A DNA stretch of 32,000 nt, taken from Candidatus Methylomirabilis oxygeniifera. Its GTDB lineage: Bacteria > Methylomirabilota > Methylomirabilia > Methylomirabilales > Methylomirabilaceae. Shown here in pieces: positions 1-29,350 of this stretch (position 1 is the stretch's first letter; every line of letters begins with the position of its first letter). The DNA is taken from NCBI GenBank assembly GCA_000091165.1, contig FP565575.1, forward strand, positions 1,890,001 through 1,922,000, written 5' to 3'. Below the pieces are notes generated by a model. The model did no database searches. It was not told the origin of the DNA and saw nothing but the letters and a program-made list of their open reading frames with translations. The position numbers were made by a program, and so were the translations under genes.

Positions 1-2
1 TC

Positions 3-158
3 GATGAGATCCGGGATGTGCGCCGCCGCATCTCAGCGCGCGTTGCGCATGATCCCGCCCGATTAGTGGCCCACTACATGGAGCTACAGAAACAGGACCA
101 GGATCGGCTGATTGAGACCGAGAAAACCGCCCAGCGCATCGATCAGTCGGCCGCCTAA
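3..158 (+). CDS. 3' end of a CDS entering from upstream of the window; product unknown
   Basis: The frame is open from the window edge to TAA 156-158 (...DEIRDVRRRISARVAHDPARLVAHYMELQKQDQDRLIETEKTAQRIDQSAA*). It is missing from the ORF track only because it has no start in the window. The stop codon lies inside the GCCTAAC motif of the following attC-like element. Confidence 0.35.
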   Translation, partial: DEIRDVRRRISARVAHDPARLVAHYMELQKQDQDRLIETEKTAQRIDQSAA

Positions 159-215
159 CTTTGCGCCCCAGCCAGACGCTCGCTCCACTTGTACGGCTGA
201 GCGTGGTTGTTATAC
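149..215 (+). repeat. attC-like imperfect palindromic element A
   Basis: GGCCGCCTAAC at 149-159 contains GCCTAAC (RYYYAAC). CGCCCCAGCC at 164-173 can pair with GGCTGAGCG at 195-203, leaving one extra base. A 5-nt spacer precedes GTTATAC at 209-215, which is one position off GTTRRRY. Both ends are shared with element B at 2778-2866. Confidence 0.4.
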
Positions 216-260
216 CCCGCCTGTGCCGATGTCGTAGCGAAGCGAATCTTCGTAAGGTGA

Positions 261-296
261 GTAATCGTTGACAAGCTGTAATCGTTCGATTACACT
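261..296 (+). promoter_or_regulatory. sigma70-type promoter with operator-like repeats for the killer/antidote operon
   Basis: TTGACA at 268-273, a 17-nt spacer, and TACACT at 291-296. A perfect inverted repeat GTAATCG-tt-CGATTAC at 278-293 overlaps the -10. A further GTAATCGTT copy at 261-269 overlaps the -35. The ATG at 303 is only 6 nt past the -10. Confidence 0.55.
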
Positions 297-302
297 CTAT
301 CT

Positions 303-596
303 ATGTTCTTGATAAAACTCCTGCCCGAATTTACCGCATGGCTGGACGGTCTGTCCGATGCGTCGGTGCGCGGGGTGGTCGCGGCGCGCATCAAGCGTCT
401 GGAGCGCGGCTTGATGGGGGACGTGGAGCCGGTCGGCGACGGGGTGTCGGAGTTGCGCATTCATTTCGGTGCGGGCTGGCGCATGTATTTCGTGCAGCGT
501 GACGGTCAGTTGATTGTGTTGCTCGTCGGTGGCTCCAAGCGTACCCAAAAGACTGACATCAAGCGCGCCAAGGCATTGGCGGCGCTCTTGGACTAA
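303..596 (+). CDS. addiction module killer protein (RelE/ParE-superfamily, HigB-like toxin)
   Basis: 97 aa. FTAWLDGL...ARIKRLERG..GDVEPVGDGVSELRIHFGAGWRMYF..RDGQLIVLLVGGSKRTQKTDIKRAK matches the pattern of the putative addiction module killer family. It is immediately followed by the antidote gene. Confidence 0.85.
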   Translation: MFLIKLLPEFTAWLDGLSDASVRGVVAARIKRLERGLMGDVEPVGDGVSELRIHFGAGWRMYFVQRDGQLIVLLVGGSKRTQKTDIKRAKALAALLD

Positions 597-611
597 GTGA
601 AGGAGATGACT

Positions 612-917
612 ATGATCCAACGTATCAAAGTAGCTGACTTACCCGAGTTTGATGCCGCGCCGTATCTCGACAGCGAGGCGGCGATTGCGGCTTACCTGAC
701 GGATATTCTGGAAGCGAACGATTCGGCTTTGCTGGCGTCGGCATTGGGAGACATCGCTCGGGCGCGTGGCATGAGCGAGATTGCCAAGGCATCCGGACTG
801 ACCCGCGAAGCTTTGTACAAGGCGCTCAGACCCAATGCGAAACCGCGCTACGACACCATCGCGAAGGTCTGTGCGGCGCTCGGGGTGCGGCTGGTGGCAC
901 AGGCGATTCATGCGTGA
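612..917 (+). CDS. addiction module antidote protein, HTH type (HigA family antitoxin)
   Basis: The ORF track starts it at GTG 597. ATG 612 is preferred because GAAGGAG at 599-605 lies 6 nt upstream. DAAPYLDSEAAIAAYL...GDIARARGMSEIAKASGLTREALYKALRPNAKPRYDTIAKVCAALGVRL is the typical antidote HTH pattern. Confidence 0.85.
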   Translation: MIQRIKVADLPEFDAAPYLDSEAAIAAYLTDILEANDSALLASALGDIARARGMSEIAKASGLTREALYKALRPNAKPRYDTIAKVCAALGVRLVAQAIHA

Positions 918-1211
918 GCCTCCAAAGTTGACCGCCCGAGGAGATAGGCGCCACAATGGTGCCTAATGAACGGCTCAACCAGGCAACTACCCGACCGCAA
1001 TGAATGGCTGAATGCCTCCACGCTTTCCCTCGAAAAGGCAGTCCAGACGCCTGCTTCGCCACGAGAAGCCACGAAAAGCGCTTGACCGCCTTCCAGATTT
1101 GGCGTAATAGATCGTTAGTTACCTTTCTTTCCCTTGGAGAGGTGTGTCTGCCGCTTGTCTGCCAGGCAGGGAGGATAGCATGGGGCAATCTCACTAAAAC
1201 GGGGGCAATTC

Positions 1212-1309
1212 ATTGTCCTGCCCTTCCAGGTCATCGAGCAGGTGGACGAGCTGCACGCCGAAAGGCCAGAGGACACGTCACCACAAGGATTGCTTTTTGA
1301 CGAACGCGG
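1212..1309 (+). pseudogene. short fragment of a DNA methyltransferase N-terminus (paralogous copy of 3075-3172)
   Basis: It reads IVLPFQVIEQVDELHAERPEDTSPQGLLFDERG with no start codon and no continuation. By hand alignment it is about 91 percent identical (9 mismatches in 98 nt) to 3075-3172. Confidence 0.6.
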
Positions 1310-1393
1310 GCTATCGTCTGCGTCGCTCAGTTCAAGTCGTAAGACGGCTGCACACGGCTTGCCTGATGAACAGTACCTACACTACCGGGGTCG

Positions 1394-1633
1394 ATGAGGC
1401 TTGAGGTTGTTGGTCCAATTGCAGACGTTGAGGTTATCGCGTCAGGACCAGCAATTCGGGCGCGCTCCTACCTTCGCAAGGCGTATGGTCGAGGTCGATG
1501 GCGGAAGTGAAAGGGTGTTGCCACCGTTCGCCTGCCGAACGGCGCTTTGCGGAGGGTAGAGTTGCGTTGGTATGAAGCGCATGATATTGGTAGGAGAGAC
1601 CTGAGAATCAAACGCTACTTGGAAGACGTATGA
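1394..1633 (+). pseudogene. small conserved-hypothetical gene interrupted by an in-frame TGA (1508-1510)
   Basis: ATG 1394 ... GRGRWRK-TGA-KGVATVRLPNGALRRVELRWYEAHDIGRRDLRIKRYLEDV-TGA. The stop overlaps the next ATG (ATGA at 1630-1633). The part after the internal TGA has no in-frame ATG or GTG start of its own. From memory, the KGVA.VRLP.G...E.HWYEAH.IG pattern belongs to a widespread small-protein family. Confidence 0.45.
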
Positions 1634-1866
1634 AAACGACGATGAAGCCGTTTGCGCTGTGTATCGATAACACAGACTATCAGGCATCACTCATCCTTGG
1701 CAAGGTCTATCATATTCTTCCGGATCCAAAAGCTGCCAAAGATGATCTTGTGCGCATCGTCGATGAGAGCGGCGAAGACTACCTCTATCACAAGGGGCTT
1801 TTTGTCTTTGTGGACTTTCCGAAAGTAGTGAAGAAGAAAATCCTCGCCCTTGCGACTGCTGCCTAA
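1630..1866 (+). CDS. small conserved hypothetical protein (partner of 1394-1633)
   Basis: 78 aa with an ATGA overlap onto the upstream ORF. The RIVDESGEDYLYHKGLF motif is recognised from a recurrent small-protein family of unknown function. Its stop codon lies inside a GCCTAAC motif at 1861-1867. Confidence 0.6.
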   Translation: MKTTMKPFALCIDNTDYQASLILGKVYHILPDPKAAKDDLVRIVDESGEDYLYHKGLFVFVDFPKVVKKKILALATAA

Positions 1867-2195
1867 CTCAAATTCGGACACTATGAATACGGTCAAACGG
1901 CTTGACCGCCCACGGCTGCCATGCGAGAGTCTCTTGGGATTCCGGCTGGTGGTCGCCGGCTGATGTTCCAAGCCGGTCTCGATAACAAGGCTGCCGGCGC
2001 TGCCGCTTTGCCGCCAAAACCCCCGCAGCCACGCAGCAAAAGGCGCCCAGGGGAGATGGGACCCCTGCCAGATTAGGCGGCGAGCCCGTCGGCCCTAAAC
2101 AGATTAGGCCGGTCTGCCTAATTGTAGTTAAGCGGTCAGGACCCAGTCATTGGCGAGTGTCCGCATCCAGGCTATTGAGGCGACGAAGGGTTGAG

Positions 2196-2777
2196 ATGGT
2201 ACGGTTCCTCTGGTCGGAAAGAACCTGGGCCATCGTGAGCGCCGTGTCTGGCATGGTCGCGGCGCTCGCGGCGACGTTCACCGTCTATCAGGCCATGACA
2301 ACTACGCGTGAGGACAGGGAAGCGAAGCGACCCTACTTCACGATCGAGGCGCCTGGCATCAAACCCCTGCCGAAGAGTCCACCGTACCGAATTCAAATCA
2401 CAATGCGGAACGTCGGTGTCCATCCTGCAACCAGGTTGAACGGAAAGATCCTGTTCGTTGATGCGAACCTCGCTACGAAGCCGGCGTACGCTTTCGACTT
2501 TTCGGTAGCAAACGATGTACCTTCGGGATCTCCGACCCCGTGGTACAACGACTCCCTTATACTTCCAAATGACGTGCCGCCGATGTACGTCGTGCTAGCC
2601 GCTTCGTATAGCGACACCATTATCGGCAAGGACTACTCGCAGGCTTTTTATATGCGGTGGGACGGCGTCAAGAATGGTCAGACACAGCCAGATTTCGTTC
2701 ATGTGTCGGCTTCCGAGCGGTCTCGCATCGAACAAGCGCTGCGAACTGAGATCGAAGGCGTCATTCAACGGAAGTGA
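2196..2777 (+). CDS. hypothetical membrane-anchored protein (single N-terminal TM helix)
   Basis: The ORF track gives 2157-2777 (GTG). ATG 2196 gives MVRFLWSERTWAIVSAVSGMVAALAATFTVYQAM. No family was recognised. It is flanked by GTTAAGC at 2127-2133 and by attC-like element B. Confidence 0.5.
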   Translation: MVRFLWSERTWAIVSAVSGMVAALAATFTVYQAMTTTREDREAKRPYFTIEAPGIKPLPKSPPYRIQITMRNVGVHPATRLNGKILFVDANLATKPAYAFDFSVANDVPSGSPTPWYNDSLILPNDVPPMYVVLAASYSDTIIGKDYSQAFYMRWDGVKNGQTQPDFVHVSASERSRIEQALRTEIEGVIQRK

Positions 2778-2866
2778 GGCCGCCTAACCTCGCGCTGGGG
2801 CCGTCGCGCCGGCCCCGTGCGTGCTCGCGTGCCACCGTGGCGCGCGGCTGAGCGCCGGCGTTATAT
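2778..2866 (+). repeat. attC-like imperfect palindromic element B
   Basis: GGCCGCCTAAC at 2778-2788 starts 1 nt after the stop codon at 2775-2777. GCGCTGGGGCC at 2792-2802 can pair with GGCTGAGCGC at 2846-2855. A spacer precedes GTTATAT at 2860-2866. There is an internal GC-rich palindrome GCCACCGTGGC. The architecture matches element A. Confidence 0.4.
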
Positions 2867-2924
2867 TTTCCATCGCGCCTCTCGGTCTGATACTGGGTAG
2901 GACATCGAGAAAAAGAGAAGTTTC

Positions 2925-3218
2925 ATGCCACGACTGACTGAACAAGAACAACAAGAGATCATCCGCTATATCGAGGCGGACAAGCCGCTGCCGGATAAGT
3001 TTCGCTTCCTGCTCCTCGAGGAGAAGCGGGAGGTGGAGCTAGTTTGGAACGGCAAGAGCAGCGAGGTCAGCAGTATCGTTCTGCCCTTTCAGGTGATCGA
3101 ACAGGTGGACGAGCCGCGCGCCGAAAGACCAGAGGACACGTCACCACAAGGATTGCTTTTTGACGAGCGCGGCCGCCAGCTTAAGGGCTGGACGAACAAA
3201 CTGGTTCCTCATCGCTGA
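2925..3218 (+). pseudogene. N-terminal fragment (about 95 codons) of a site-specific DNA methyltransferase (R-M Mod-type)
   Basis: MPRLTEQEQQEIIRYIEADKPLPDKFRFLL.E.KREVELVWNGK...VLPFQVIEQVDEPR...LFDERGRQLKGWTNKL is the characteristic N-terminus of large adenine methylases. The ORF then diverges and stops, and no catalytic domain is present. Confidence 0.65.
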
Positions 3219-3477
3219 AGAACGAGCCGCAAAGGCCAAGGTCGTTATCAGCACGCGCTTCAACAGCCAGCAGCAGGTGTTTCTCGATTTTGTGCTGTCA
3301 CACTACGTCAGCGTCGGGGTGGAAGAACTTGATCAGGACAAGCTCACTCCCCTATTGCGGCTCAAGTATCACAACTCCATCGCCGACGCCGTGGCCGATC
3401 TGGGCAGGCCGGATGAGATCGGGCGTGTCTTCACAGGCTTCCAGAAGTACCTATATCAGCAGCAGGCGGCCGCGTGA
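3160..3477 (+). pseudogene. C-terminal fragment of a type I restriction enzyme R subunit (EcoEI R C-terminal-like domain)
   Basis: QQQVFLDFVLSHYVSVGVEELDQDKLTPLLRLKYHNSIADAVADLGRPDEIGRVFTGFQKYLYQ matches the HsdR C-terminal domain pattern. The helicase and nuclease parts are absent. Recognisable similarity begins near 3215, in a different frame from the methylase fragment. Confidence 0.55.
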
Positions 3478-3612
3478 CACGCAAGAACCAAGAGTTCGTC
3501 GAGGGAGTGCCTGGCATGTTGGAGGTATTTAGCGGTGACGCTCGACGATCGCATCTGCTACTCTCTAACACCAGAGAATGGTTGTCGGCGCGACAGTTCG
3601 GTGCTACTACTT

Positions 3613-3759
3613 ATTAACAGTCTCATAATTGAATCGACACCCATTGAGAAAATCTCCCCTCGCCCCTCTTTTCCAAAGAGGGGTCAATCCTTCCTTTGAC
3701 AAAGGGAGGCGAGGAGGGATTGTTCGATCATGTGAAACTATTATTATGAGACGGTTAAT
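3613..3759. repeat. inverted-repeat-flanked composite hairpin element
   Basis: ATTAACAGTCTCATAAT at 3613-3629 and ATTATGAGACGGTTAAT at 3743-3759 are reverse complements with 1 mismatch. They enclose 3649-3722, where outer arms AATCTCCCCTCGCC/GGCGAGGAGGGATT flank two 9-bp hairpins: CCCCTCTTT-tcc-AAAGAGGGG at 3663-3683 and CCTTCCTTT-gac-AAAGGGAGG at 3689-3709. Confidence 0.75.
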
Positions 3760-3777
3760 ATTTTCACGCCGGCAATA

Positions 3778-3827
3778 AATCTCCCCTACCCCATTTGCCG
3801 AAGGGGGGCAGCGAAGCGGGGGGATTT
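3778..3827. repeat. C-tract/G-tract hairpin repeat unit
   Basis: AAATCTCCCC...GGGGGGATTT outer arms around CCCCATTTGCCGAAGGGGGG. It belongs to the same family as 3649-3722, 12982-13028, 13606-13771 and 18530-18658. Confidence 0.7.
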
Positions 3828-3844
3828 GAAGAGGTGGTAAAGGT

Positions 3845-4264
3845 ATGAACCTGGCTGAAACAACCGCGACTATCATCCACACCGTGCTGGCGCACTACCC
3901 CGCGACGCAGGCCATCTACCTGTTCGGCTCGTACGGCGCAGGTGACGCTTGGCCGGATAGCGATGCGGACATTGCCCTGCTCTTCACCCCGGAACAGGCC
4001 AAAGCAGAACACAACCTGCCCCTGAGTCAATGCCGCTTTGATCTGGAAGATGCCCTGTCCAAAGAGGTGGATCTGCTCAATGCCCGGCAGGTGTCCACCG
4101 TCTTTCAAAAGGAAATTATTGGCGGTGTCCGTATCTATTGCGCCGATCCGTATGCGGCGGATGAATTTGAAATGCTGGTCATCTCCTATTACCAAAAGCT
4201 GAACGAAGAGCGGCGGGAAATCCTGGACGCCTTTGACAAAACCGGGAGGGCGTACGCCGTATGA
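3845..4264 (+). CDS. mntA: nucleotidyltransferase-domain antitoxin (MNT, MntA-like)
   Basis: 139 aa with the LFGSYGAGDAWPDSDADIALLF minimal nucleotidyltransferase motif. An ATGA overlap links it to the downstream HEPN gene. Confidence 0.85.
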   Translation: MNLAETTATIIHTVLAHYPATQAIYLFGSYGAGDAWPDSDADIALLFTPEQAKAEHNLPLSQCRFDLEDALSKEVDLLNARQVSTVFQKEIIGGVRIYCADPYAADEFEMLVISYYQKLNEERREILDAFDKTGRAYAV

Positions 4265-4677
4265 ACGATATCGTCATCAATAAAATTCAAAGTATTCAGC
4301 GGTGTATCGAGCGCGCGCGGCAAGAATACCGGTCAGACCCTGACGGGTTCGCAGTCAATCACACCTTGCAAGACGCGGCGGTGTTGAATGTGTTGCGGGC
4401 GTGCGAACAGGCGATTGACCTGGCCAATCATGTGATTCACACGTACAAGATGGGCATTCCCACCGCCAGCACAGAAAGTTTCGATCTGCTGCTGGCAAAG
4501 CATGTCATTGACGTGGCCCTGTCGGAGAAACTTAAACAGATGGTGCATTTCCGCAACATCGTCATTCACCAGTACCAGCGCATGGACATAGAGATTGTCA
4601 CATCGGTGATCGTTTCCGGCCTGGATGATCTGGTTCAATTCGGCGACCGCGTCAAGGAGTTTATCGGTGAGCGTTAG
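4261..4677 (+). CDS. hepT: HEPN/DUF86 toxin (HepT-like)
   Basis: 138 aa. RNIVIHQY fits the Rx4HxY HEPN motif. It is translationally coupled to mntA. Confidence 0.85.
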   Translation: MNDIVINKIQSIQRCIERARQEYRSDPDGFAVNHTLQDAAVLNVLRACEQAIDLANHVIHTYKMGIPTASTESFDLLLAKHVIDVALSEKLKQMVHFRNIVIHQYQRMDIEIVTSVIVSGLDDLVQFGDRVKEFIGER

Positions 4678-4712
4678 GCATTGCAGCCGTACAATCCGAG
4701 GAGTGTCCCGAC

Positions 4713-5096
4713 ATGTCACCAGACATAGACCTGTTCATTGCGCTTGAGCGCCGCGTGTGGCAGGCGCTGGCAGATGGCGATGTCAGCGCCGACTCACGTC
4801 TTCTCGATCCCAGATATCTCGGCGTCTATGCAACCGGCTTCGGTTCAAAAGACGACCATGTGGCGCAACTGCGCAATGGCCCCATTGTTAAAAGCTTCGC
4901 CATCGAGGATCCTCGACTCCTGGTGTTCGCACCGGACACCGTGCTACTTGCCTATCGAGCAACCTTTATACCGGCCGGCAAAGCTGATCCGCAGGTGGTC
5001 CACATCATGTACGTGTCGTCAGTGTGGAAACAACGCGGCGCTGACTGGGTCAACATATTCAGTCAAGACACGATGGCAGATGAGGCTGCCACGTGA
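4713..5096 (+). CDS. SnoaL-like / DUF4440 (NTF2-fold) protein
   Basis: 127 aa. The pattern LERRVWQALADGDVSADSRLLDP.Y.GV...G...K..H..QL ... VSSVWKQRGADWVNIFSQDT is typical of DUF4440. GAGGAG lies 9 nt upstream of the ATG. Confidence 0.55.
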   Translation: MSPDIDLFIALERRVWQALADGDVSADSRLLDPRYLGVYATGFGSKDDHVAQLRNGPIVKSFAIEDPRLLVFAPDTVLLAYRATFIPAGKADPQVVHIMYVSSVWKQRGADWVNIFSQDTMADEAAT

Positions 5097-5213
5097 CCAG
5101 GGGTGACCCTGCGTTCACTCGCGCACGCGCCCCAGGTACCGCACATCTTCAGTCGGGGCGCAGAGTCACAACGGTTGTCGGCATAACTCATTTTTACGAA
5201 GGGAGACACAGCA

Positions 5214-5342
5214 ATGGGTGACAGTGGAAAAAAGGATAAAGGCAAAAGGGAAACGCAAAAAAAGGCCCAGCTTGATCCAAAGGCCAAACGAAAATTGAAA
5301 CAAGAAAAGAAGCATAAGTCCAGCTCCATCTCTTCCAGGTGA
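5214..5342 (+). CDS. lysine-rich microprotein (42 aa)
   Basis: MGDSGKKDKGKRETQKKAQLDPKAKRKLKQEKKHKSSSISSR. GGGAG at 5201-5205 lies 8 nt before the ATG. It is too short for the ORF track. The 108-aa ORF on the opposite strand (5063-5389) is its low-complexity mirror image. Confidence 0.4.
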   Translation: MGDSGKKDKGKRETQKKAQLDPKAKRKLKQEKKHKSSSISSR

Positions 5343-5535
5343 CCTTCAATCACGCAAGGGAGTTGTGTGCCGGTCGCCGACCAGACCATTCACACTATGT
5401 CACTGGCAGCACAACCAGTCGATTTACCCGCCAGGCATGGCGGTTGCGGTTGCGCGTGCAATCAATGTCGCTCGACGCCATAACCGGCTGATGATCTCGA
5501 GCATTGAGGCAACTATTCACGCCAAGGAGGGACAC

Positions 5536-5865
5536 ATGGCTGGAGTAAAATTTATTGTAATCTACCCTCGTCCGACTGATATTGAAGCCTTCGAGAAGGT
5601 GTATCAGGACGAGCACGTACCCATGGCGGTTGAAAAGCTGGTCGGCAAGACCAAACTCGTAGCGACGAAGGTACTGGCTTCTCCTCAAGGGACACCACCT
5701 TTTTACCGTATCGCCGAGGTTCACTTCCCGTCGATGGAAGCCCTGGAGGCCTGCGCCGCTTCAGCAGGGACGAAGGAGACATTGGCCCATGCCGTGTCTA
5801 TCTCCACCGGAGGTACACCGATTTTTTTAGTCGCCGAAGAGGAGACTTTCGCCTTCGCCCCATGA
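5536..5865 (+). CDS. EthD family reductase
   Basis: The start is moved from 5365 to ATG 5536, which has AAGGAGG 6 nt upstream. MAGVKFIVIYPRPTDIEAFEKVYQDEHVPMAVEKL...FYRIAEVHFPSMEALEA fits the EthD (TIGR02118-type) pattern. Length is about 109 aa. Confidence 0.75.
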   Translation: MAGVKFIVIYPRPTDIEAFEKVYQDEHVPMAVEKLVGKTKLVATKVLASPQGTPPFYRIAEVHFPSMEALEACAASAGTKETLAHAVSISTGGTPIFLVAEEETFAFAP

Positions 5866-6010: not shown

Positions 6011-7261
6011 ATGAAACGTGTTGTTGTCATTGGAGCGGGTGCGGCGGGGACTATGGCCGCGATCTTTGCGGCCTCCAGCGGCGCCGAGACGCGGCTCCTC
6101 GAGCGCACGAATGACGGCGGACGCAAAATTCTCATCAGCGGGGGCGGCCGGTGCAACATTCTGCCGGCCGTCGTTCATGAGTCTCGCTTCGTCACCGATT
6201 CTTCACCTCACACCCTTCGAAAGATGCTCCGCTCCTGGCCGCTAAGCGAGCAGATCGCGTTCTTCGAAGGCAAAGCCGGGATCCCCCTGATGGAAGAAAG
6301 GGAGTCGGCGAAGCTGTTTCCACAATCCGAAAGCGCGCGCGATGTTCGCGACAGGCTGCTGGCGCTCGCGCGCGCCAGAGGCGTCGTGATCGAGACCGGC
6401 GCGTTGGTCACCGGCCTTGTCCCGGCCGGCAACGGCTGGCAGATCGAACGACGCGGAGGATCATCCCTGCAGGCCGATGCCGTCGTTGTTGCCACAGGCG
6501 GCCTCTCCTTTCCCGGTACGGGAAGCGATGGCCTCGGGCTTCGCATCATCAAGACGCTGGGGCATACGATCAACCGAACCTACCCGGCGCTGACCCCGCT
6601 GACGGCGACGGTCCGGCGAAAGCCGGGCACGACCGGTGGCGCGCCGTTCGCCGCGCTTTCAGGCATTTCGCTGCCGGTCACGCTGACCGCCCGCGCAGGA
6701 ACCTTGGAGTCCACATCGACAGGAGGATTTCTTTTCACCCACCACGGCTACAGCGGGCCCGCCGTGCTCGATGTGTCTCATGTCGCGGTACGCTCACGCG
6801 CCGAGATGGACGCTCCCGCGCGTCTCGTTGTACGATGGACGTCATTGAACGATAAGGATTGGGAATCGGTTTTCGGTTCGCGCGGTTCTCGAACGGTGCT
6901 GAACGCTGTGGCGGCTCAGTTACCGCGTCGACTCGCCGAAGCGCTGATCGATTTCGCCAGGATTGATATTCGCCGAACACTCTCGCAACTGACCCGTGAC
7001 GAGCGGCTCCGTCTCATCGACATCCTCGTACGATGCGAACTGCCGTGGTCGGGAGATGAGGGGTACGGGAAGGCCGAAGTCACCGGCGGTGGTGTGTGTC
7101 TGTCGGAGATCGATCCGAAGACTTTGGAAAGCAAGATTCACAAGGGTCTGTTTCTGTGCGGCGAGATACTCGACGCCTTCGGACCGATCGGCGGCTACAA
7201 CTTTCTCTGGGCGTGGGCGACCGGGCGCGCCGCCGGCCTTGGCGCCTCACGCACGCACTAG
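6011..7261 (+). CDS. NAD(P)/FAD-dependent oxidoreductase, HI0933 (BaiN-like) flavoprotein family
   Basis: 416 aa with the VVVIGAGAAG Rossmann motif, GGGRCN, and C-terminal GEILD..G.IGGYNF.WAW.TG. Confidence 0.85.
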   Translation: MKRVVVIGAGAAGTMAAIFAASSGAETRLLERTNDGGRKILISGGGRCNILPAVVHESRFVTDSSPHTLRKMLRSWPLSEQIAFFEGKAGIPLMEERESAKLFPQSESARDVRDRLLALARARGVVIETGALVTGLVPAGNGWQIERRGGSSLQADAVVVATGGLSFPGTGSDGLGLRIIKTLGHTINRTYPALTPLTATVRRKPGTTGGAPFAALSGISLPVTLTARAGTLESTSTGGFLFTHHGYSGPAVLDVSHVAVRSRAEMDAPARLVVRWTSLNDKDWESVFGSRGSRTVLNAVAAQLPRRLAEALIDFARIDIRRTLSQLTRDERLRLIDILVRCELPWSGDEGYGKAEVTGGGVCLSEIDPKTLESKIHKGLFLCGEILDAFGPIGGYNFLWAWATGRAAGLGASRTH

Positions 7262-7306: not shown

Positions 7307-9214
7307 ATGGCTCTTATTACACTCGATCATGTCTCCATCGCGTACGGACACGTCCCGCTGCTCGACGATGCCAGCCTGCAGGTCGAAGCCGGCGAACGTG
7401 TGTGCGTGATCGGCCGGAACGGCACCGGCAAATCCACATTGCTTCAGATCCTTAGCGGAGATCAGACCCCCGACAGCGGTTCGGTGTGGCGACAGCCTGA
7501 GATTGGGGTCGCGCGGCTTGTGCAGGACGTTCCCCTGTCGTCCAATCGCCCTGTGTTCGACGTCGTCGCGGAAGGGCTGGGCAACCTCGGCGAGTTGGTG
7601 GCCGCCTACCATCACGCGGCGGTGGATGTGGCCGAACGAGGCACCGACATCTCGCTCGACAAGCTGGGCAGGCTGCAGCGCGAGCTCGAAGAGCGGGACG
7701 GTTGGCGCCTCGAACAGCGCGTGGAAATCGTCCTCGATCGTCTGGGTCTCCCGGCCGAGGCCATCGTCGACAGCTTGTCAGGAGGCTGGCGGCGGCGCGT
7801 GCTGCTGGCGAGGGCGCTGGTGGCCCAACCGCAACTCCTCCTGCTCGACGAGCCTACCAACCATCTCGACATCGACGCGATGATCTGGCTCGAAGAGTTT
7901 CTCAAGACGTACGCAGGTGCGGTGGTATTTGTCACCCACGACCGGGTGTTTCTCCAGAATCTGGCAACACGGATCGTAGAGCTGGATCGCGGCACACTGA
8001 CGTCGTGGCCGGGCGACTACGCGACCTTTCTCCGCAGGAAGGAAGAATGGCTTGCGAGTGAGGCGGCGCAGAACGCCACGTTCGACAAGCGGCTCGCTGA
8101 GGAAGAGGTGTGGCTTCGCCAGGGTATCAAGGCGCGGCGGACGCGGGATGAGGGCCGGGTTCGCGCGCTGCTGGCCATGCGACAAGAGCGGGCCGCACGG
8201 CGCGCGCAGGTCGGTAATGTTTGTCTGCAGGCCGAGATCGGCGAGCGCTCGGGTCGGCTCGTATTCGAGGCCGTCGGTATCTCGAAATCGTTCGGCGACA
8301 AGCCCGTCGTCCGCGATCTGTCGTTACGCGTGATGCGCGGGGATCGTGTGGGGTTGATCGGTCCGAACGGATCGGGTAAGACGACCCTGCTTCGACTGTT
8401 GATCGGCGAACTCACGCCCGACACGGGCAACGTGAAGCGCGGCGCCAACGTTCAGGTGGCGTATTACGACCAGCAGCGCGAGCAGCTCGATCCCCAGCGC
8501 ACGGTATTTGACACGGTCGGCGATGGAAACGACACGGTCACGGTGAACGGCCGCACGCGGCACGTCCACGGATACCTCCGCGATTTTCTGTTTCCACCTG
8601 AGCGTGCGTACGCCCGGGTTCAGACACTGTCTGGCGGTGAGCGAAATCGCCTGGTGCTGGCACGCCTGTTCACGCAACCCGCCAATGTCCTCGTCCTTGA
8701 TGAGCCCACAAATGATCTCGATATCGAGACGCTGGAATTGCTTGAATCGTATCTCATCGAGTGGCCGGGAACGCTGCTGCTCGTCAGCCACGATCGCGCG
8801 TTCATCGATCACGTCGTCACGAGTACGCTCGTCTTCGAAGGTGGCGGACAGGTGCAGGAGTACGTCGGTGGATACGAGGACTGGCTGCGGCAGCGCGGCA
8901 CCAGGGAAACAGCGACCAAGGCGCAGCCGGAGAGGACGGTACGCCCTGCGCAACCGCCCGTGACGGTGGCGACCAGAAAGAAACCGACCTATCGCGAGCA
9001 AAGGGAACTCGAGCAGCTTCCGGCGCAGATCGAAGCCCTGGAATGCGAGCACGCGCAATTGACCGCCTCGATCACAGACCCCCTCTTTTACCGGCAACCG
9101 GCCGATTCGATCACGCAGGCGCTCGCGCGCCTCGATGCGCTGGCACGCGAGCTTCACGACGCCTACACTCGCTGGGACGAACTTGATTCCCGCATTACGC
9201 GCGAACGTGTGTGA
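7307..9214 (+). CDS. uup: ABC-F family ATPase Uup
   Basis: 635 aa with two ABC cassettes (GRNGTGKST / LSGGWRRR / LLLLDEPTNHLD and GPNGSGKTT / LSGGERNR / VLVLDEPTNDLD) plus a C-terminal coiled-coil tail. Confidence 0.9.
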   Translation: MALITLDHVSIAYGHVPLLDDASLQVEAGERVCVIGRNGTGKSTLLQILSGDQTPDSGSVWRQPEIGVARLVQDVPLSSNRPVFDVVAEGLGNLGELVAAYHHAAVDVAERGTDISLDKLGRLQRELEERDGWRLEQRVEIVLDRLGLPAEAIVDSLSGGWRRRVLLARALVAQPQLLLLDEPTNHLDIDAMIWLEEFLKTYAGAVVFVTHDRVFLQNLATRIVELDRGTLTSWPGDYATFLRRKEEWLASEAAQNATFDKRLAEEEVWLRQGIKARRTRDEGRVRALLAMRQERAARRAQVGNVCLQAEIGERSGRLVFEAVGISKSFGDKPVVRDLSLRVMRGDRVGLIGPNGSGKTTLLRLLIGELTPDTGNVKRGANVQVAYYDQQREQLDPQRTVFDTVGDGNDTVTVNGRTRHVHGYLRDFLFPPERAYARVQTLSGGERNRLVLARLFTQPANVLVLDEPTNDLDIETLELLESYLIEWPGTLLLVSHDRAFIDHVVTSTLVFEGGGQVQEYVGGYEDWLRQRGTRETATKAQPERTVRPAQPPVTVATRKKPTYREQRELEQLPAQIEALECEHAQLTASITDPLFYRQPADSITQALARLDALARELHDAYTRWDELDSRITRERV

Positions 9215-13772: not shown

Positions 13773-13849
13773 TGGTGGCGGTGACTGGACTCGAACCAGT
13801 GACGCCGCGGATATGAGCCGCGTGCTCTGACCGACTGAGCTACACCGCC
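13773..13849 (-). tRNA. tRNA-Met (anticodon CAT; an elongator or lysidine-modified Ile2 identity cannot be separated by eye)
   Basis: The reverse complement folds as a cloverleaf: GGCGGTG-TA-GCTC-AGTCGGTC-AGAGC-A-CGCGG-CTCATAT-CCGCG-GCGTC-ACTGG-TTCGAGT-CCAGT-CACCGCC-A-CCA. All four stems are fully paired and the CCA is encoded. Confidence 0.9.
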
Positions 13850-29255: not shown

Positions 29256-29350
29256 TGGCGGAGGCGTGTGGGGGTCGAACCCACCAACCCGGTATTAGCG
29301 GGTGCGCTGGTTTTGAAGACCAGGAGGGCCACCGGGCCCATTCCGCCTCC
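29256..29350 (-). tRNA. selC: tRNA-Sec (anticodon TCA), selC
   Basis: The 95-nt reverse complement is GGAGGCGGAATGGGCCCGGTGGCCCTCCTGGTCTTCAAAACCAGCGCACCCGCTAATACCGGGTTGGTGGGTTCGACCCCCACACGCCTCCGCCA. It has a long acceptor stem, a 5-6 bp D-stem with the 4-nt loop CGGT, the anticodon loop CTTCAAA, a long variable arm (ACCCG..CGGGT), the T-arm GTGGG-TTCGACC-CCCAC and discriminator G. The length and layout match E. coli selC as I recall it. Confidence 0.9.

What the first reader, a model, noticed from the sequence alone, without database searches (positions are those of the whole stretch)
149..2866. attC-like elements at ORF boundaries suggest an integron-type gene cassette array (no integrase in the window)
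Two elements (149-215 and 2778-2866) share both ends. The 5' end is GGCCGCCTAAC, which contains GCCTAAC and fits the attC inverse core RYYYAAC. The 3' end is GGCTGAGCG, a 5-nt spacer, then GTTATAC or GTTATAT, one position off the attC core GTTRRRY. In both elements an inner box next to the 5' end can pair with GGCTGAGCG while leaving an extra base: CGCCCCAGCC at 164-173 with 195-203, and GCGCTGGGGCC at 2792-2802 with 2846-2855. That is the R''-L''...L'-R' layout of attC sites. The lengths of 67 and 89 bp fall within the usual attC range. The GCCTAAC motif overlaps or abuts the stop codon of the preceding + strand ORF three times (153-159, 1861-1867, 2782-2788). A canonical GTTAAGC at 2127-2133 lies 24 nt before the ORF at 2157. 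Every gene here is short and in the same orientation, and the content is what chromosomal cassette arrays usually carry: TA pairs with their own promoters, orphan proteins and gene fragments. More degenerate GCCTAAT/ATTAGGC motifs occur at 961-967, 2073-2079, 2103-2109 and 2116-2122. If this is right, the array would be either a cluster of attC sites lacking an integrase (CALIN) or the distal part of a chromosomal integron.
Basis: partly seen in the sequence, partly recalled or inferred. Interest (0 to 1): 0.65.

Follow-up and report, generated by a model that had tools for sequence, protein, structure and literature searches.

The report
Fossil integron cassettes in Methylomirabilis
Two short DNA elements at the left end of the window are genuine integron cassette recombination sites (attC), left over from a decayed integron in a methane-oxidising NC10 bacterium; this is a known kind of relic, though I found no report of one in this phylum.

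Summary
The two elements exist exactly as described (153-215 and 2782-2866, + strand). I built an attC covariance model from 42 independent attC sites that lie next to intI genes. In the 32-kb window it hits only these two elements: 35.6 bits (E 1.4e-6) and 21.7 bits (E 0.003). In 1.28 Mb of unrelated GC-rich control DNA, the best chance hit scored 16.3 bits.

About 200 nt upstream of attC1, outside the window, lies a 45-codon remnant of a tyrosine recombinase. Its closest relatives are integron integrases. The 10 kb beyond it holds housekeeping genes, so no intact integrase is nearby.

In a sister Methylomirabilis genome, homology with the window begins exactly at the G|TTATAT core of attC2. 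To the left of that point both genomes carry unrelated ORFs and unrelated attC sites. That is the behaviour of a cassette boundary.

The right half of the island (about 2.9-5.9 kb) consists of restriction-modification and toxin-antitoxin debris, not recognisable cassettes.

attC1 no longer folds as a hairpin, and attC2 folds only marginally.

Verdict: a decayed integron that IntegronFinder would class as a CALIN (cluster of attC sites lacking an integrase). It is a new member of a known kind, of modest interest.

The parts
1..158 (+). 3' part of a 61-aa ORF that starts 27 nt before the window. Its TAA stop lies inside the R'' box of attC1. Taken as the cassette gene of attC1.
   Evidence: gene called at L001 9671-9856. 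No Pfam or NCBIfam match.
153..215 (+). attC1, a degenerate attC site of 63 nt. R'' GCCTAAC 153-159; L'' region 164-173 with an unpaired C at 168; L' GGCTGAGCG 195-203; R' GTTATAC 209-215.
   Evidence: Model R1: 21.7 bits, E 0.003, model positions 1-73; the minus strand scores only 8.4 bits. The bottom strand does not fold as a hairpin: z = 0.02 and 0 end-to-end pairs.
303..917 (+). HigB-like toxin (303-596, PF05973) and HigA-like antitoxin (606/612-917, PF21716), with their own promoter-like site at 268-296.
   Evidence: TTGACA-17-TACACT, 10 of 12.
1212..1309 (+). 98-nt fragment of a Mod-like methylase N-terminus, a 91% duplicate of 3075-3172. Gene debris.
   Evidence: family D1. Several assemblies break here.
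1630..1866 (+). 78-aa orphan ORF whose TAA stop sits in GCCTAAC (1861-1867). There is no attC after it.
   Evidence: No R1 hit, even in the island-only search.
2196..2777 (+). 193-aa orphan ORF (an alternative GTG start at 2157 gives 206 aa). Cassette gene of attC2.
   Evidence: Only 44 homologue clusters in 5.8 billion proteins, spread across distant taxa. Homologues sit directly after attC hits in L010 (31.3 bits) and in L179/L181 (22.7 bits).
2782..2866 (+). attC2, an attC site of 85 nt. R'' GCCTAAC 2782-2788; L'' 2792-2802 with an unpaired G at 2797; L' GGCTGAGCG 2846-2854; R' GTTATAT 2860-2866.
   Evidence: Model R1: 35.6 bits, E 1.4e-6, full length. Primer-consensus match. Homology breakpoint with L189 at 2859/2860. 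Folds end to end (15 of 23 terminal nt paired) but z is only -0.99.
2860..2941 (+). Conserved junction sequence to the right of the crossover point (TTATATTTTCCATCGCGCC...ATGCCACGACTGACTG). It is shared at 93% with the sister genome L189. Its first 25 nt also follow a second attC in L189.
2925..3218 (+). 97-aa ORF, an N-terminal fragment of a Mod-like DNA methylase. The family assignment rests on recognising the sequence; no Pfam hit.
   Evidence: Duplicate of its 3' part at 1212-1309.
3217..3491 (+). 3' end of a type I restriction hsdR gene (the EcoEI_R_C domain ORF is 3160-3477). Remnant of the intact hsdMSR operon seen in the sister genome.
   Evidence: PF08463, E 5.7e-12. 94% identical to the end of the 775-aa hsdR at L189 8282-8556.
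3492..4662 (+). Segment absent from sister genome L189. It holds an inverted-repeat element (arms 3612-3629 and 3743-3760) and the MNT (3845-4264) / HEPN (4261-4677) toxin-antitoxin pair. Not bounded by attC sites.
   Evidence: (I6).
4663..5368 (+). DUF4440 gene (4713-5096) and a small lysine-rich ORF (5214-5342). Shared with both sister genomes at 89%, so this is conserved island content, not a demonstrable cassette.
5536..5865 (+). EthD-family gene, absent from both sister genomes. In its slot they carry BrnT/BrnA or a 72-aa ORF. No attC detected.

Best explanation
The left end of the window belongs to a decayed chromosomal integron in Candidatus Methylomirabilis oxyfera (NC10). It lies in a variable island between gdhA and an HI0933-type flavoprotein gene.

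An integron integrase once inserted promoterless ORF-plus-attC modules here. It did so by recombining the folded bottom strand of an incoming attC at the G|TT of the R' core. Two such sites survive:
- attC1 (153-215) follows a 61-aa ORF.
- attC2 (2782-2866) follows a 193-aa orphan ORF.

The integrase gene has been reduced to a 45-codon C-terminal remnant about 200 nt upstream of attC1, just outside the window (L001 9522-9656), on the same strand as the cassettes. The attC sites that must once have separated the modules between attC1 and attC2 (the HigBA pair, gene fragments, the 78-aa ORF) have been lost.

The sequence starting at TTATAT to the right of attC2 is older flanking DNA. It is shared with a sister species and carries the debris of an R-M system and other defence and TA modules.

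The array is now inert. There is no local integrase. attC1 keeps its sequence boxes but no longer folds. attC2 still forms the hairpin and could perhaps be used by an integrase supplied in trans.

Shown here: attC identity by model, the homology breakpoint at R', the IntI-like remnant, and the cassette context of the ORF193 family elsewhere. Inferred: that insertion was IntI-mediated at this locus, the order of events, and present inactivity.
For: - Model R1 was built only from attC sites next to intI genes (85% of cells paired, covariation above all 500 shuffles). With filters off it hits only 2782-2866 (35.6 bits) and 153-215 (21.7 bits) in the window. Both hits are on the + strand and full length.
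- Controls. In 358 kb of intI loci, every hit of at least 20 bits outside the Methylomirabilis copy (L001) and L010 lies on the cassette strand upstream of intI; attC hits there score from about 20 up to 69 bits. In 1.28 Mb of unrelated genomic loci the best chance hits are 16.3 and 15.8 bits. The only strong hit there is an attC in another NC10 genome (L102, 33.6 bits).
- The right end of attC2 matches the Stokes attC primer consensus with 1 mismatch in 20.
- The recombinase remnant [41 protein letters not shown] scores best against TIGR02249 integron integrase: 60.2 bits against 53-55.5 for the Xer models. It is 62% identical to IntI1 residues 277-321. Its closest database relatives (67-86% identity) score as IntI by a 20-40 bit margin. 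Hits at 66% identity (P0051, P0053) are XerC.
- Homology with sister genome L189 starts at window 2859, the C before GTTATAT. To the left, each genome has a different ORF and a different GCCTAAC...GTTATAT element.
- Homologues of ORF193 are rare and patchy. In two unrelated arrays of small same-strand ORFs they sit directly after attC hits.
- The upstream 10 kb is housekeeping, so there is no live intI nearby.
Against: - Only two attC sites are detectable. The 2.57 kb between them holds at least three gene units with no attC.
- attC1 is weak (21.7 bits). Its bottom strand folds no better than shuffles (z = 0.02), against -2.1 or below for all 42 training sites. attC2 has z = -0.99.
- The recombinase remnant covers only the most conserved 45 residues shared with Xer proteins, and its margin over the Xer models is 5-7 bits. 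It lacks the IntI-specific extra domain and the GVRSP tail. One catalytic residue is changed (HxxR to HxxQ).
- Its orientation, on the same strand as the cassettes, is the less common arrangement.
- No attI or Pc could be identified.
- The training set was chosen partly by arm complementarity, which biases the folding comparison.
- All available M. oxyfera contigs are 100% identical, so strain-level cassette turnover could not be tested.
Confidence: 0.72

Rival explanations
1. The attC sites are genuine, but there was never a resident integron here. Cassettes were inserted at secondary sites (GTT or GNT) of a defence-island hot spot by an integrase encoded elsewhere or acting in trans. The neighbouring recombinase fragment is an unrelated Xer-type or island-integrase relic.
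For: - The locus is a mosaic hot spot carrying R-M, TA and IS elements in the three sister genomes.
- The remnant's margin for IntI over Xer is only 5-7 bits.
- Cury et al. list secondary-site integration as one origin of CALIN, and found no intI pseudogene near 95% of CALIN.
- M. oxyfera is reported to carry a group IIC-attC intron outside any array. That hints at attC-like targets elsewhere in the genome.
Against: - The remnant lies about 200 nt from attC1, and its nearest relatives are IntI.
- attC-bounded junctions occur at the same locus in a second species (L189, two sites). This fits a locus-resident system better than independent secondary insertions.
Confidence: 0.2
2. The two elements are not attC sites. 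They are copies of a lineage-specific repeat (REP- or MITE-like), or hairpins like those of intrinsic terminators, that happen to resemble attC ends.
For: - A terminator-like hairpin plus T-rich tail is called inside attC2, at 2838-2857.
- Neither element folds better than shuffles.
- Methylomirabilis genomes carry other small palindromic repeats near these sites, e.g. AAATGGGGTCAGACCCCAT.
Against: - Both are full-length hits to a model trained on unrelated attC sites. No comparable hits occur in 1.28 Mb of control DNA.
- There are no further copies in the other 29 kb of the window or in the flanks.
- The two elements share only the R/L boxes, not their interiors, as attC sites do.
- The count of terminator-like sites is below the shuffle expectation: 5 found against 6.2 expected.
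Confidence: 0.05
3. The window holds the distal part of a live, large sedentary chromosomal integron whose intI and attI lie further upstream.
Against: - The 10 kb upstream of the window contains clpP, clpX, bamD, ksgA, an AIR-synthase-like gene, eno and gdh. There is no integrase other than the 45-codon remnant.
- Only two attC sites exist, and they are not homogeneous.
Confidence: 0.02

Closest known systems
CALIN (cluster of attC sites lacking an integron integrase; Cury et al. 2016, IntegronFinder)
   Same: There are two attC sites 2.57 kb apart, within the 4-kb clustering limit, on one strand, each after a small ORF, with no functional intI nearby. CALIN are proposed to be degraded integrons, and a minority (15 of 279) have an intI pseudogene within 10 kb.
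   Different: The array is at the minimum size of 2 sites. One site has lost its fold. The neighbouring intI trace is so short (45 codons) that IntegronFinder's pseudogene screen, which needs more than 50% profile coverage, would miss it. The host is an NC10 bacterium, a phylum for which I found no report of attC sites or cassette arrays.
Sedentary chromosomal integrons with an inactivated intI (for example the Xanthomonas integrons next to ilvD; from my own knowledge, not tested here)
   Same: A fixed chromosomal locus between conserved housekeeping genes, an integrase decayed by deletion, cassette content that differs between related species, and orphan and TA genes as cargo.
   Different: Those arrays keep many homogeneous attC sites. 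Here only two dissimilar sites remain, mixed with R-M and TA debris that is not attC-bounded.
[quoted passage not shown]
   Same: The intI-like remnant is on the same strand as the cassettes and attC sites, with its 3' end facing the first cassette. Such a group is described.
   Different: The orientation of a 45-codon remnant could equally result from a rearrangement. No attI is identifiable. Phylogenetic placement of so short a fragment is not possible.
Class 1 integron attC sites (59-base elements) and the Stokes HS286/HS287 consensus
   Same: The same box layout. attC2's right end differs from GCSGCTKANCTCVRRCGTTA at 1 of 20 positions. The left end TAACCTCGCGCTG is identical to that of an attC next to an environmental intI (L095). 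R' variants with T at position 5 (GTTATGC) also occur in genuine arrays.
   Different: Scores are lower than most attC hits in the intI-associated arrays, which reach 69 bits. The L'' of attC2 has two substitutions (GG for CA) that break pairing with L'. The interior of attC1 is unpaired.

Membership tests
attC recombination site | Inverse core R'' (RYYYAAC) at the 5' end and core R' (GTTRRRY) at the 3' end, 50-150 nt apart | tested here: met
   GCCTAAC...GTTATAC (63 nt) and GCCTAAC...GTTATAT (85 nt). R' deviates at position 5 (T). The same deviation occurs in genuine intI-adjacent arrays, e.g. GTTATGC.
attC recombination site | Inner L''/L' boxes that pair with an unpaired (extrahelical) base on the R''-L'' arm | tested here: met
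   The R1 alignment places both sites on all 18 model pairs, with the unpaired column at 168 (attC1) and 2797 (attC2) and only a few non-standard pairs in each. In the training alignment that column is the unpaired base between covarying pairs.
attC recombination site | Significant full-length match to an attC covariance model | tested here: met
   35.6 bits (E 1.4e-6) and 21.7 bits (E 0.003). The best chance hit in 1.28 Mb of control DNA is 16.3 bits. The model is my own (R1), not IntegronFinder's.
attC recombination site | The bottom strand folds into a stable imperfect hairpin | tested here: inconclusive
   attC1: z = 0.02 and 0 end-to-end pairs, so not met. attC2: 15 of 23 terminal nt paired but z = -0.99, so marginal. 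All 42 training sites have z of -2.1 or below, median -4.7. The training set was partly selected for complementarity.
attC recombination site | Lies immediately 3' of a cassette ORF, in the same orientation | tested here: met
   R'' overlaps the TAA stop of the 61-aa ORF (156-158). It starts 5 nt after the TGA stop (2775-2777) of the 193-aa ORF.
attC recombination site | Crossover at G|TT of R', seen as cassette-wise variation between genomes | tested here: met
   For attC2 only. Homology with L189 starts at window 2859, and the sequence to the left is unrelated. There is no informative comparison for attC1.
attC recombination site | Recombined by an integron integrase | not testable with these tools
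   Needs a suicide-conjugation or excision assay.
Complete integron | Intact intI with the IntI-specific additional domain and catalytic residues | tested here: not met
   Only residues equivalent to IntI1 277-321 remain. HxxR is changed to HxxQ. There is no other IntI-like HSP in L001 or the window.
Complete integron | An attI site and Pc promoter next to intI | not testable with these tools
   attI sequences are lineage-specific and unknown for NC10. No candidate could be defined.
CALIN (IntegronFinder definition) | At least 2 attC sites no more than 4 kb apart, with no intI nearby | tested here: met
   Two sites, 2,566 nt between them. No intI ORF lies within 10 kb upstream or in the window.
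Sedentary chromosomal integron (large array) | Many cassettes with homogeneous attC sites | tested here: not met
   Only 2 sites. They share the R/L boxes but not length or interior.
REP/MITE-like dispersed repeat | Copies scattered in non-cassette contexts | tested here: not met
   No further copies in the window, in 20 kb of L001, or outside the homologous island in sister loci. The whole genome was not available.

The most novel reading that the evidence does not exclude
[quoted passage not shown] On this reading, the conserved junction G|TTATAT-TTTCCATCGCGCC shared between species marks the original end of the array, the right-hand side of the ancestral attI. Cassettes upstream of it have turned over since the species split. 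That would make this a lineage-specific integron class in a phylum where no integron has been described.
Probability: 0.3. Interest if true: 0.45.

Novelty: new member of a known kind. Interest (0 to 1): 0.3.

Why it matters
It extends the known host range of integron relics to the NC10 phylum of nitrite-dependent methane oxidisers. I found no paper describing attC sites or cassette arrays in that phylum in the searchable library. It also gives a concrete locus, gdhA to flavoprotein, where cassette gain and loss can be followed across Methylomirabilis genomes. In addition it shows how a decayed integron merges with R-M and TA debris into one variable island. It does not change what is known about how integrons work.

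Tried and rejected
- **Rfam.** A scan of the window found nothing in the region. No Rfam match was found in the region, so this says little.
- **Plain MFE folding.** Folding both strands gave no signal, so folding alone neither confirms nor refutes.
- **My own arm-complementarity scanner.** It recovered attCs next to intI with few false positives: 77 hits against 2 control loci. But it scored attC2 only 15 and missed attC1, so it was too crude. I used it only to harvest training sites.
- **Published attC covariance models.** Those of Ghaly et al. are held as text but cannot be run with these tools.
- **Synteny scan of GTDB genomes.** Using the flavoprotein as query returned mostly Acidobacteriota and Gemmatimonadota at 62-72% identity and only one NC10 locus. 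It served as a 1.28-Mb negative control instead. Sister genomes were reached through protein look-ups.
- **Lysine-rich small ORFs.** I suspected that window 5214-5342 and the ORF before the L102 attC are homologues. BLASTP gives E = 18, so this is rejected.
- **GTTAGGC at 4673-4679.** I considered it as the R' of a cassette carrying MNT/HEPN. The sister genome has GATAGGC inside the homologous stretch, the junction lies about 10-15 nt to its left, and the model finds no hit. Rejected.
- **GCCTAAC at 1861 as an attC relic.** It cannot be shown. There is no model hit and no comparative data.
- **Strain-level cassette variation.** All eight other contigs carrying higB are 100% identical to L001.
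- **P0059.** It could not be looked up.

Full report
**Where the window comes from.** The window is 100% identical to contigs of Candidatus Methylomirabilis oxyfera (phylum NC10). Examples are ENA 'Methylomirabilis_oxyfera_contig_232' and GCA_009026205.1. Window position equals L001 position minus 9698. The finding lies in a 7.4-kb island of small, same-strand genes. The island sits between gdhA (minus strand, upstream of the window) and an HI0933-type flavoprotein gene (window 6011-7261).

**Observation.**
- The bipartite 3' motif GGCTGAGCG-N5-GTTATAY occurs exactly twice in 32 kb, counting both strands, against 0.33 expected.
- GCCTAAC alone is not enriched: 4 found against 2.5 expected. Its overlap with stop codons is partly automatic, because the motif contains TAA.
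- Rfam reports nothing in the region.
- Simple MFE folding of either strand is no better than shuffles.
- The right end of element 2 matches the published degenerate attC primer GCSGCTKANCTCVRRCGTTAGSC (quoted in PMC2669170). It has one mismatch over the first 20 positions, against 0.13 matches expected.

**An independent attC model.** No attC model was on hand, so I built one.
- I fetched class 1 arrays from plasmids and 80 metagenome loci that encode IntI1 or relatives at 70-100% identity.
- I harvested candidate attC sites on the cassette strand upstream of intI with a simple scanner. It found 77 hits in 248 kb of array side, against 2 loci in 541 kb of control DNA.
- I removed redundancy and outliers, leaving 42 sites, and aligned them (A1).
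- I wrote an 18-pair R/L-box structure for the alignment. 85% of cells form standard pairs, 15 of 18 pairs show changes on both sides, and the covariation score exceeds all 500 shuffles and all slid controls.
- From this I built model R1. The window's own elements were not used.

**Result of the model.**
- With filters off, R1 finds exactly two sites with E < 1 in the whole window: 2782-2866 (+, 35.6 bits, E 1.4e-6) and 153-215 (+, 21.7 bits, E 0.003). Both cover model positions 1-73. The reverse strand of attC1 scores only 8.4 bits.
- In 358 kb of loci, apart from the two Methylomirabilis sites and L010, every hit of at least 20 bits lies on the cassette strand upstream of an intI. attC hits there, many of them not in the training set, score from about 20 up to 69 bits.
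- In 1.28 Mb of unrelated GC-rich genomic loci the best chance hits are 16.3 and 15.8 bits.
- So both elements are attC sites by an empirically controlled test. attC2 is in the lower part of the range of attC hits in the intI-associated arrays, and attC1 is at its bottom.
- Searching only the 7.4-kb island adds nothing.

**An integrase remnant.** About 200 nt upstream of attC1, outside the window (L001 9522-9656, + strand), the sequence translates to [41 protein letters not shown]. This is the C-terminal catalytic region of a tyrosine recombinase (PF00589, E 1.3e-10).
- Its best NCBIfam match is TIGR02249 integron integrase (60.2 bits), against 53-55.5 bits for the Xer models.
- It is 62% identical to IntI1 residues 277-321. 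No other IntI-like segment exists nearby.
- Its nearest database relatives (67-86% identity) carry the IntI-type tail ...MIYTHVLNRGxxGVRSPxD. They score as integron integrase by a 20-40 bit margin. Hits at 66% identity (P0051, P0053) are XerC.
- The remnant lacks the IntI-specific extra domain, and one catalytic arginine is changed to Q. It is a pseudogene fragment whose IntI origin is probable, not proven.
- It lies on the same strand as the cassettes. That arrangement is known from the 'inverted integron-integrase' group.
- Further upstream are only a TA pair and then gdh, eno, an AIR-synthase-like gene, ksgA, bamD and clpXP. There is no live integrase nearby.

**Cassette behaviour.**
- The 193-aa ORF before attC2 belongs to a tiny family: 44 clusters among 5.8 billion proteins. 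The family is scattered over Marinimicrobia, the gammaproteobacterium Ca. Venteria and Paucibacter.
- In Venteria the homologue starts 25 nt after an attC (31.3 bits) whose right end reads GCGGCTGAGCGGCAACGTTAGAG.
- In another metagenomic array of small same-strand ORFs, a homologue directly follows an attC hit of 22.7 bits.

**Sister genomes.**
- L188 (flavoprotein 89% identical) has the same gdh-to-flavoprotein synteny. Its island is only 1.9 kb, with no attC.
- L189 (91% identical) carries an intact type I R-M operon, DUF4440 and BrnTA. It also has two attC-type elements, at 6-69 (24 bits) and 2802-2858 (10 bits, GCCTAAC...GTTATAT).
- Homology between the window and L189 begins at window 2859, the C before GTTATAT of attC2, and runs at 93%. 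To the left, each genome has an unrelated ORF and an unrelated attC. That is the signature of recombination at G|TT.
- The same 25 nt (GTTATATTYTCCATCGYGCCCCTCG) also follow the other L189 attC. I cannot fully explain this.
- A third NC10 genome (L102) has an attC (33.6 bits) 2.7 kb upstream of its flavoprotein orthologue, between IS110 copies.

**What is not cassette-like.** The comparison also shows that the right half of the island is not a demonstrable cassette array.
- Window 3217-3491 is the 3' end of the sister's hsdR, at 94% identity.
- The ORF at 2925-3218 and its 91% duplicate at 1212-1309 are methylase fragments.
- 3492-4662 (an inverted-repeat element plus MNT/HEPN) is an insertion relative to L189 and has no attC boundaries.
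- 4663-5368 (DUF4440 plus a small lysine-rich ORF) is shared by all three species.
- The EthD gene occupies a slot that holds other genes in the sisters.
- The 2.57 kb between attC1 and attC2 holds HigBA (with its own promoter-like site), debris and the 78-aa ORF, with no attC. The intermediate sites, if they existed, are gone.

**State of the sites.** All 42 training attC bottom strands fold far better than shuffles (z of -2.1 or below, median -4.7). Most form an end-to-end hairpin, with a median of 17 of 23 terminal nt paired.
- attC1 has z = 0.02 and no end-to-end pairs.
- attC2 pairs 15 of 23 terminal nt, but z is only -0.99.
- The training set was partly selected for complementarity, so the contrast is somewhat inflated. 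An independent attC (L010) still gives z = -6.2.
- I infer that attC1 is dead as a recombination substrate and that attC2 may still be usable.

**Interpretation and comparison.** The best reading is a decayed integron. It keeps an intI stump, two surviving attC sites with their ORFs, and an old array end shared with a sister species, all embedded in a variable island of defence and TA genes.
- By IntegronFinder's operational definition it is a CALIN: at least 2 attC sites within 4 kb and no intI.
- It is not a complete integron, because intI fails the test. It is not a large sedentary array. It is not a dispersed repeat.
- The main rival, at about 0.2, is that the cassettes arrived by secondary-site insertion from an integrase encoded elsewhere, and that the recombinase stump is unrelated.
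- A chance or REP-like origin, or a live integron further upstream, is very unlikely.

**Novelty.** CALIN and degraded integrons are well known. I found no paper describing attC sites or cassette arrays in NC10/Methylomirabilis. The only integron-related mention is of a group IIC-attC intron in M. oxyfera 'not in an array'. This is a new member of a known kind, and its interest is modest.

Noticed in passing
L001 9522-9656 (window -176 to -42, outside the window): A 45-codon C-terminal remnant of a tyrosine recombinase on the + strand. Its best match is integron integrase, and HxxR is changed to HxxQ.
   Followed up: yes
L001 8480-8514 and 9451-9485 (upstream of the window): 35-nt direct repeats (80% identical, each containing a TTGAC -35-like box) flank a 110-aa/99-aa putative TA module. 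The first copy lies just after the point where homology with sister genome L188 ends (L001 8475). This suggests the module was inserted or duplicated there.
   Followed up: partly
window 1212-1309 and 3075-3172: A 98-nt direct repeat (91% identical) made of methylase N-terminal coding sequence. Several independent short-read assemblies end within the first copy.
   Followed up: partly
window 3612-3760, and 3650-3665 / 3777-3792: An 18-nt inverted repeat (94% complementary, 113 nt apart) encloses G/C-rich hairpins. The motif AAATCTCCCCTNNCCC is repeated twice, just upstream of the MNT/HEPN pair. It looks MITE-like. The whole segment is absent from sister genome L189.
   Followed up: no
L189 87-111 and 2930-2954; L188 about 8399-8420: The palindrome GAAATGGGGTCAGACCCCAT recurs near the attC junctions in sister Methylomirabilis genomes. 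It may be a small dispersed repeat of this lineage. In L189 it interrupts the ORF start that is intact in the window (ATGCCACGACTGACTG...).
   Followed up: no
window 2860-2884; L189 63-87 and 2852-2876: The same 25 nt (GTTATATTYTCCATCGYGCCCCTCG) follow three different attC sites in two species. It may be the ancestral array end or a duplicated cassette start. Unexplained.
   Followed up: partly
L102 7219-7275: Another NC10 genome has an attC (33.6 bits) whose R'' reads GTCCAAG instead of ...AAC. It lies between a lysine-rich 37-aa ORF and a DUF2196 (YwbE-like) gene and is flanked by two IS110-family transposase genes.
   Followed up: partly
window 13776-13849 (-) and 29260-29350 (-): A tRNA gene and a selenocysteine tRNA gene (Rfam gathering-score hits). 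Neither is connected to the island.
   Followed up: no
L185 45-732 and L186 493-1150: In some metagenomic contigs, a homologue of the 193-aa ORF lies just downstream of an MNT/HEPN pair. The same two gene types sit about 1 kb apart in the window. No attC was detected there.
   Followed up: no
literature (PMC3001079): M. oxyfera FP565575 is listed as carrying a group IIC-attC intron (CBE67152) 'not inserted into an integron cassette array'. This hints at an attC-like target elsewhere in the genome.
   Followed up: no
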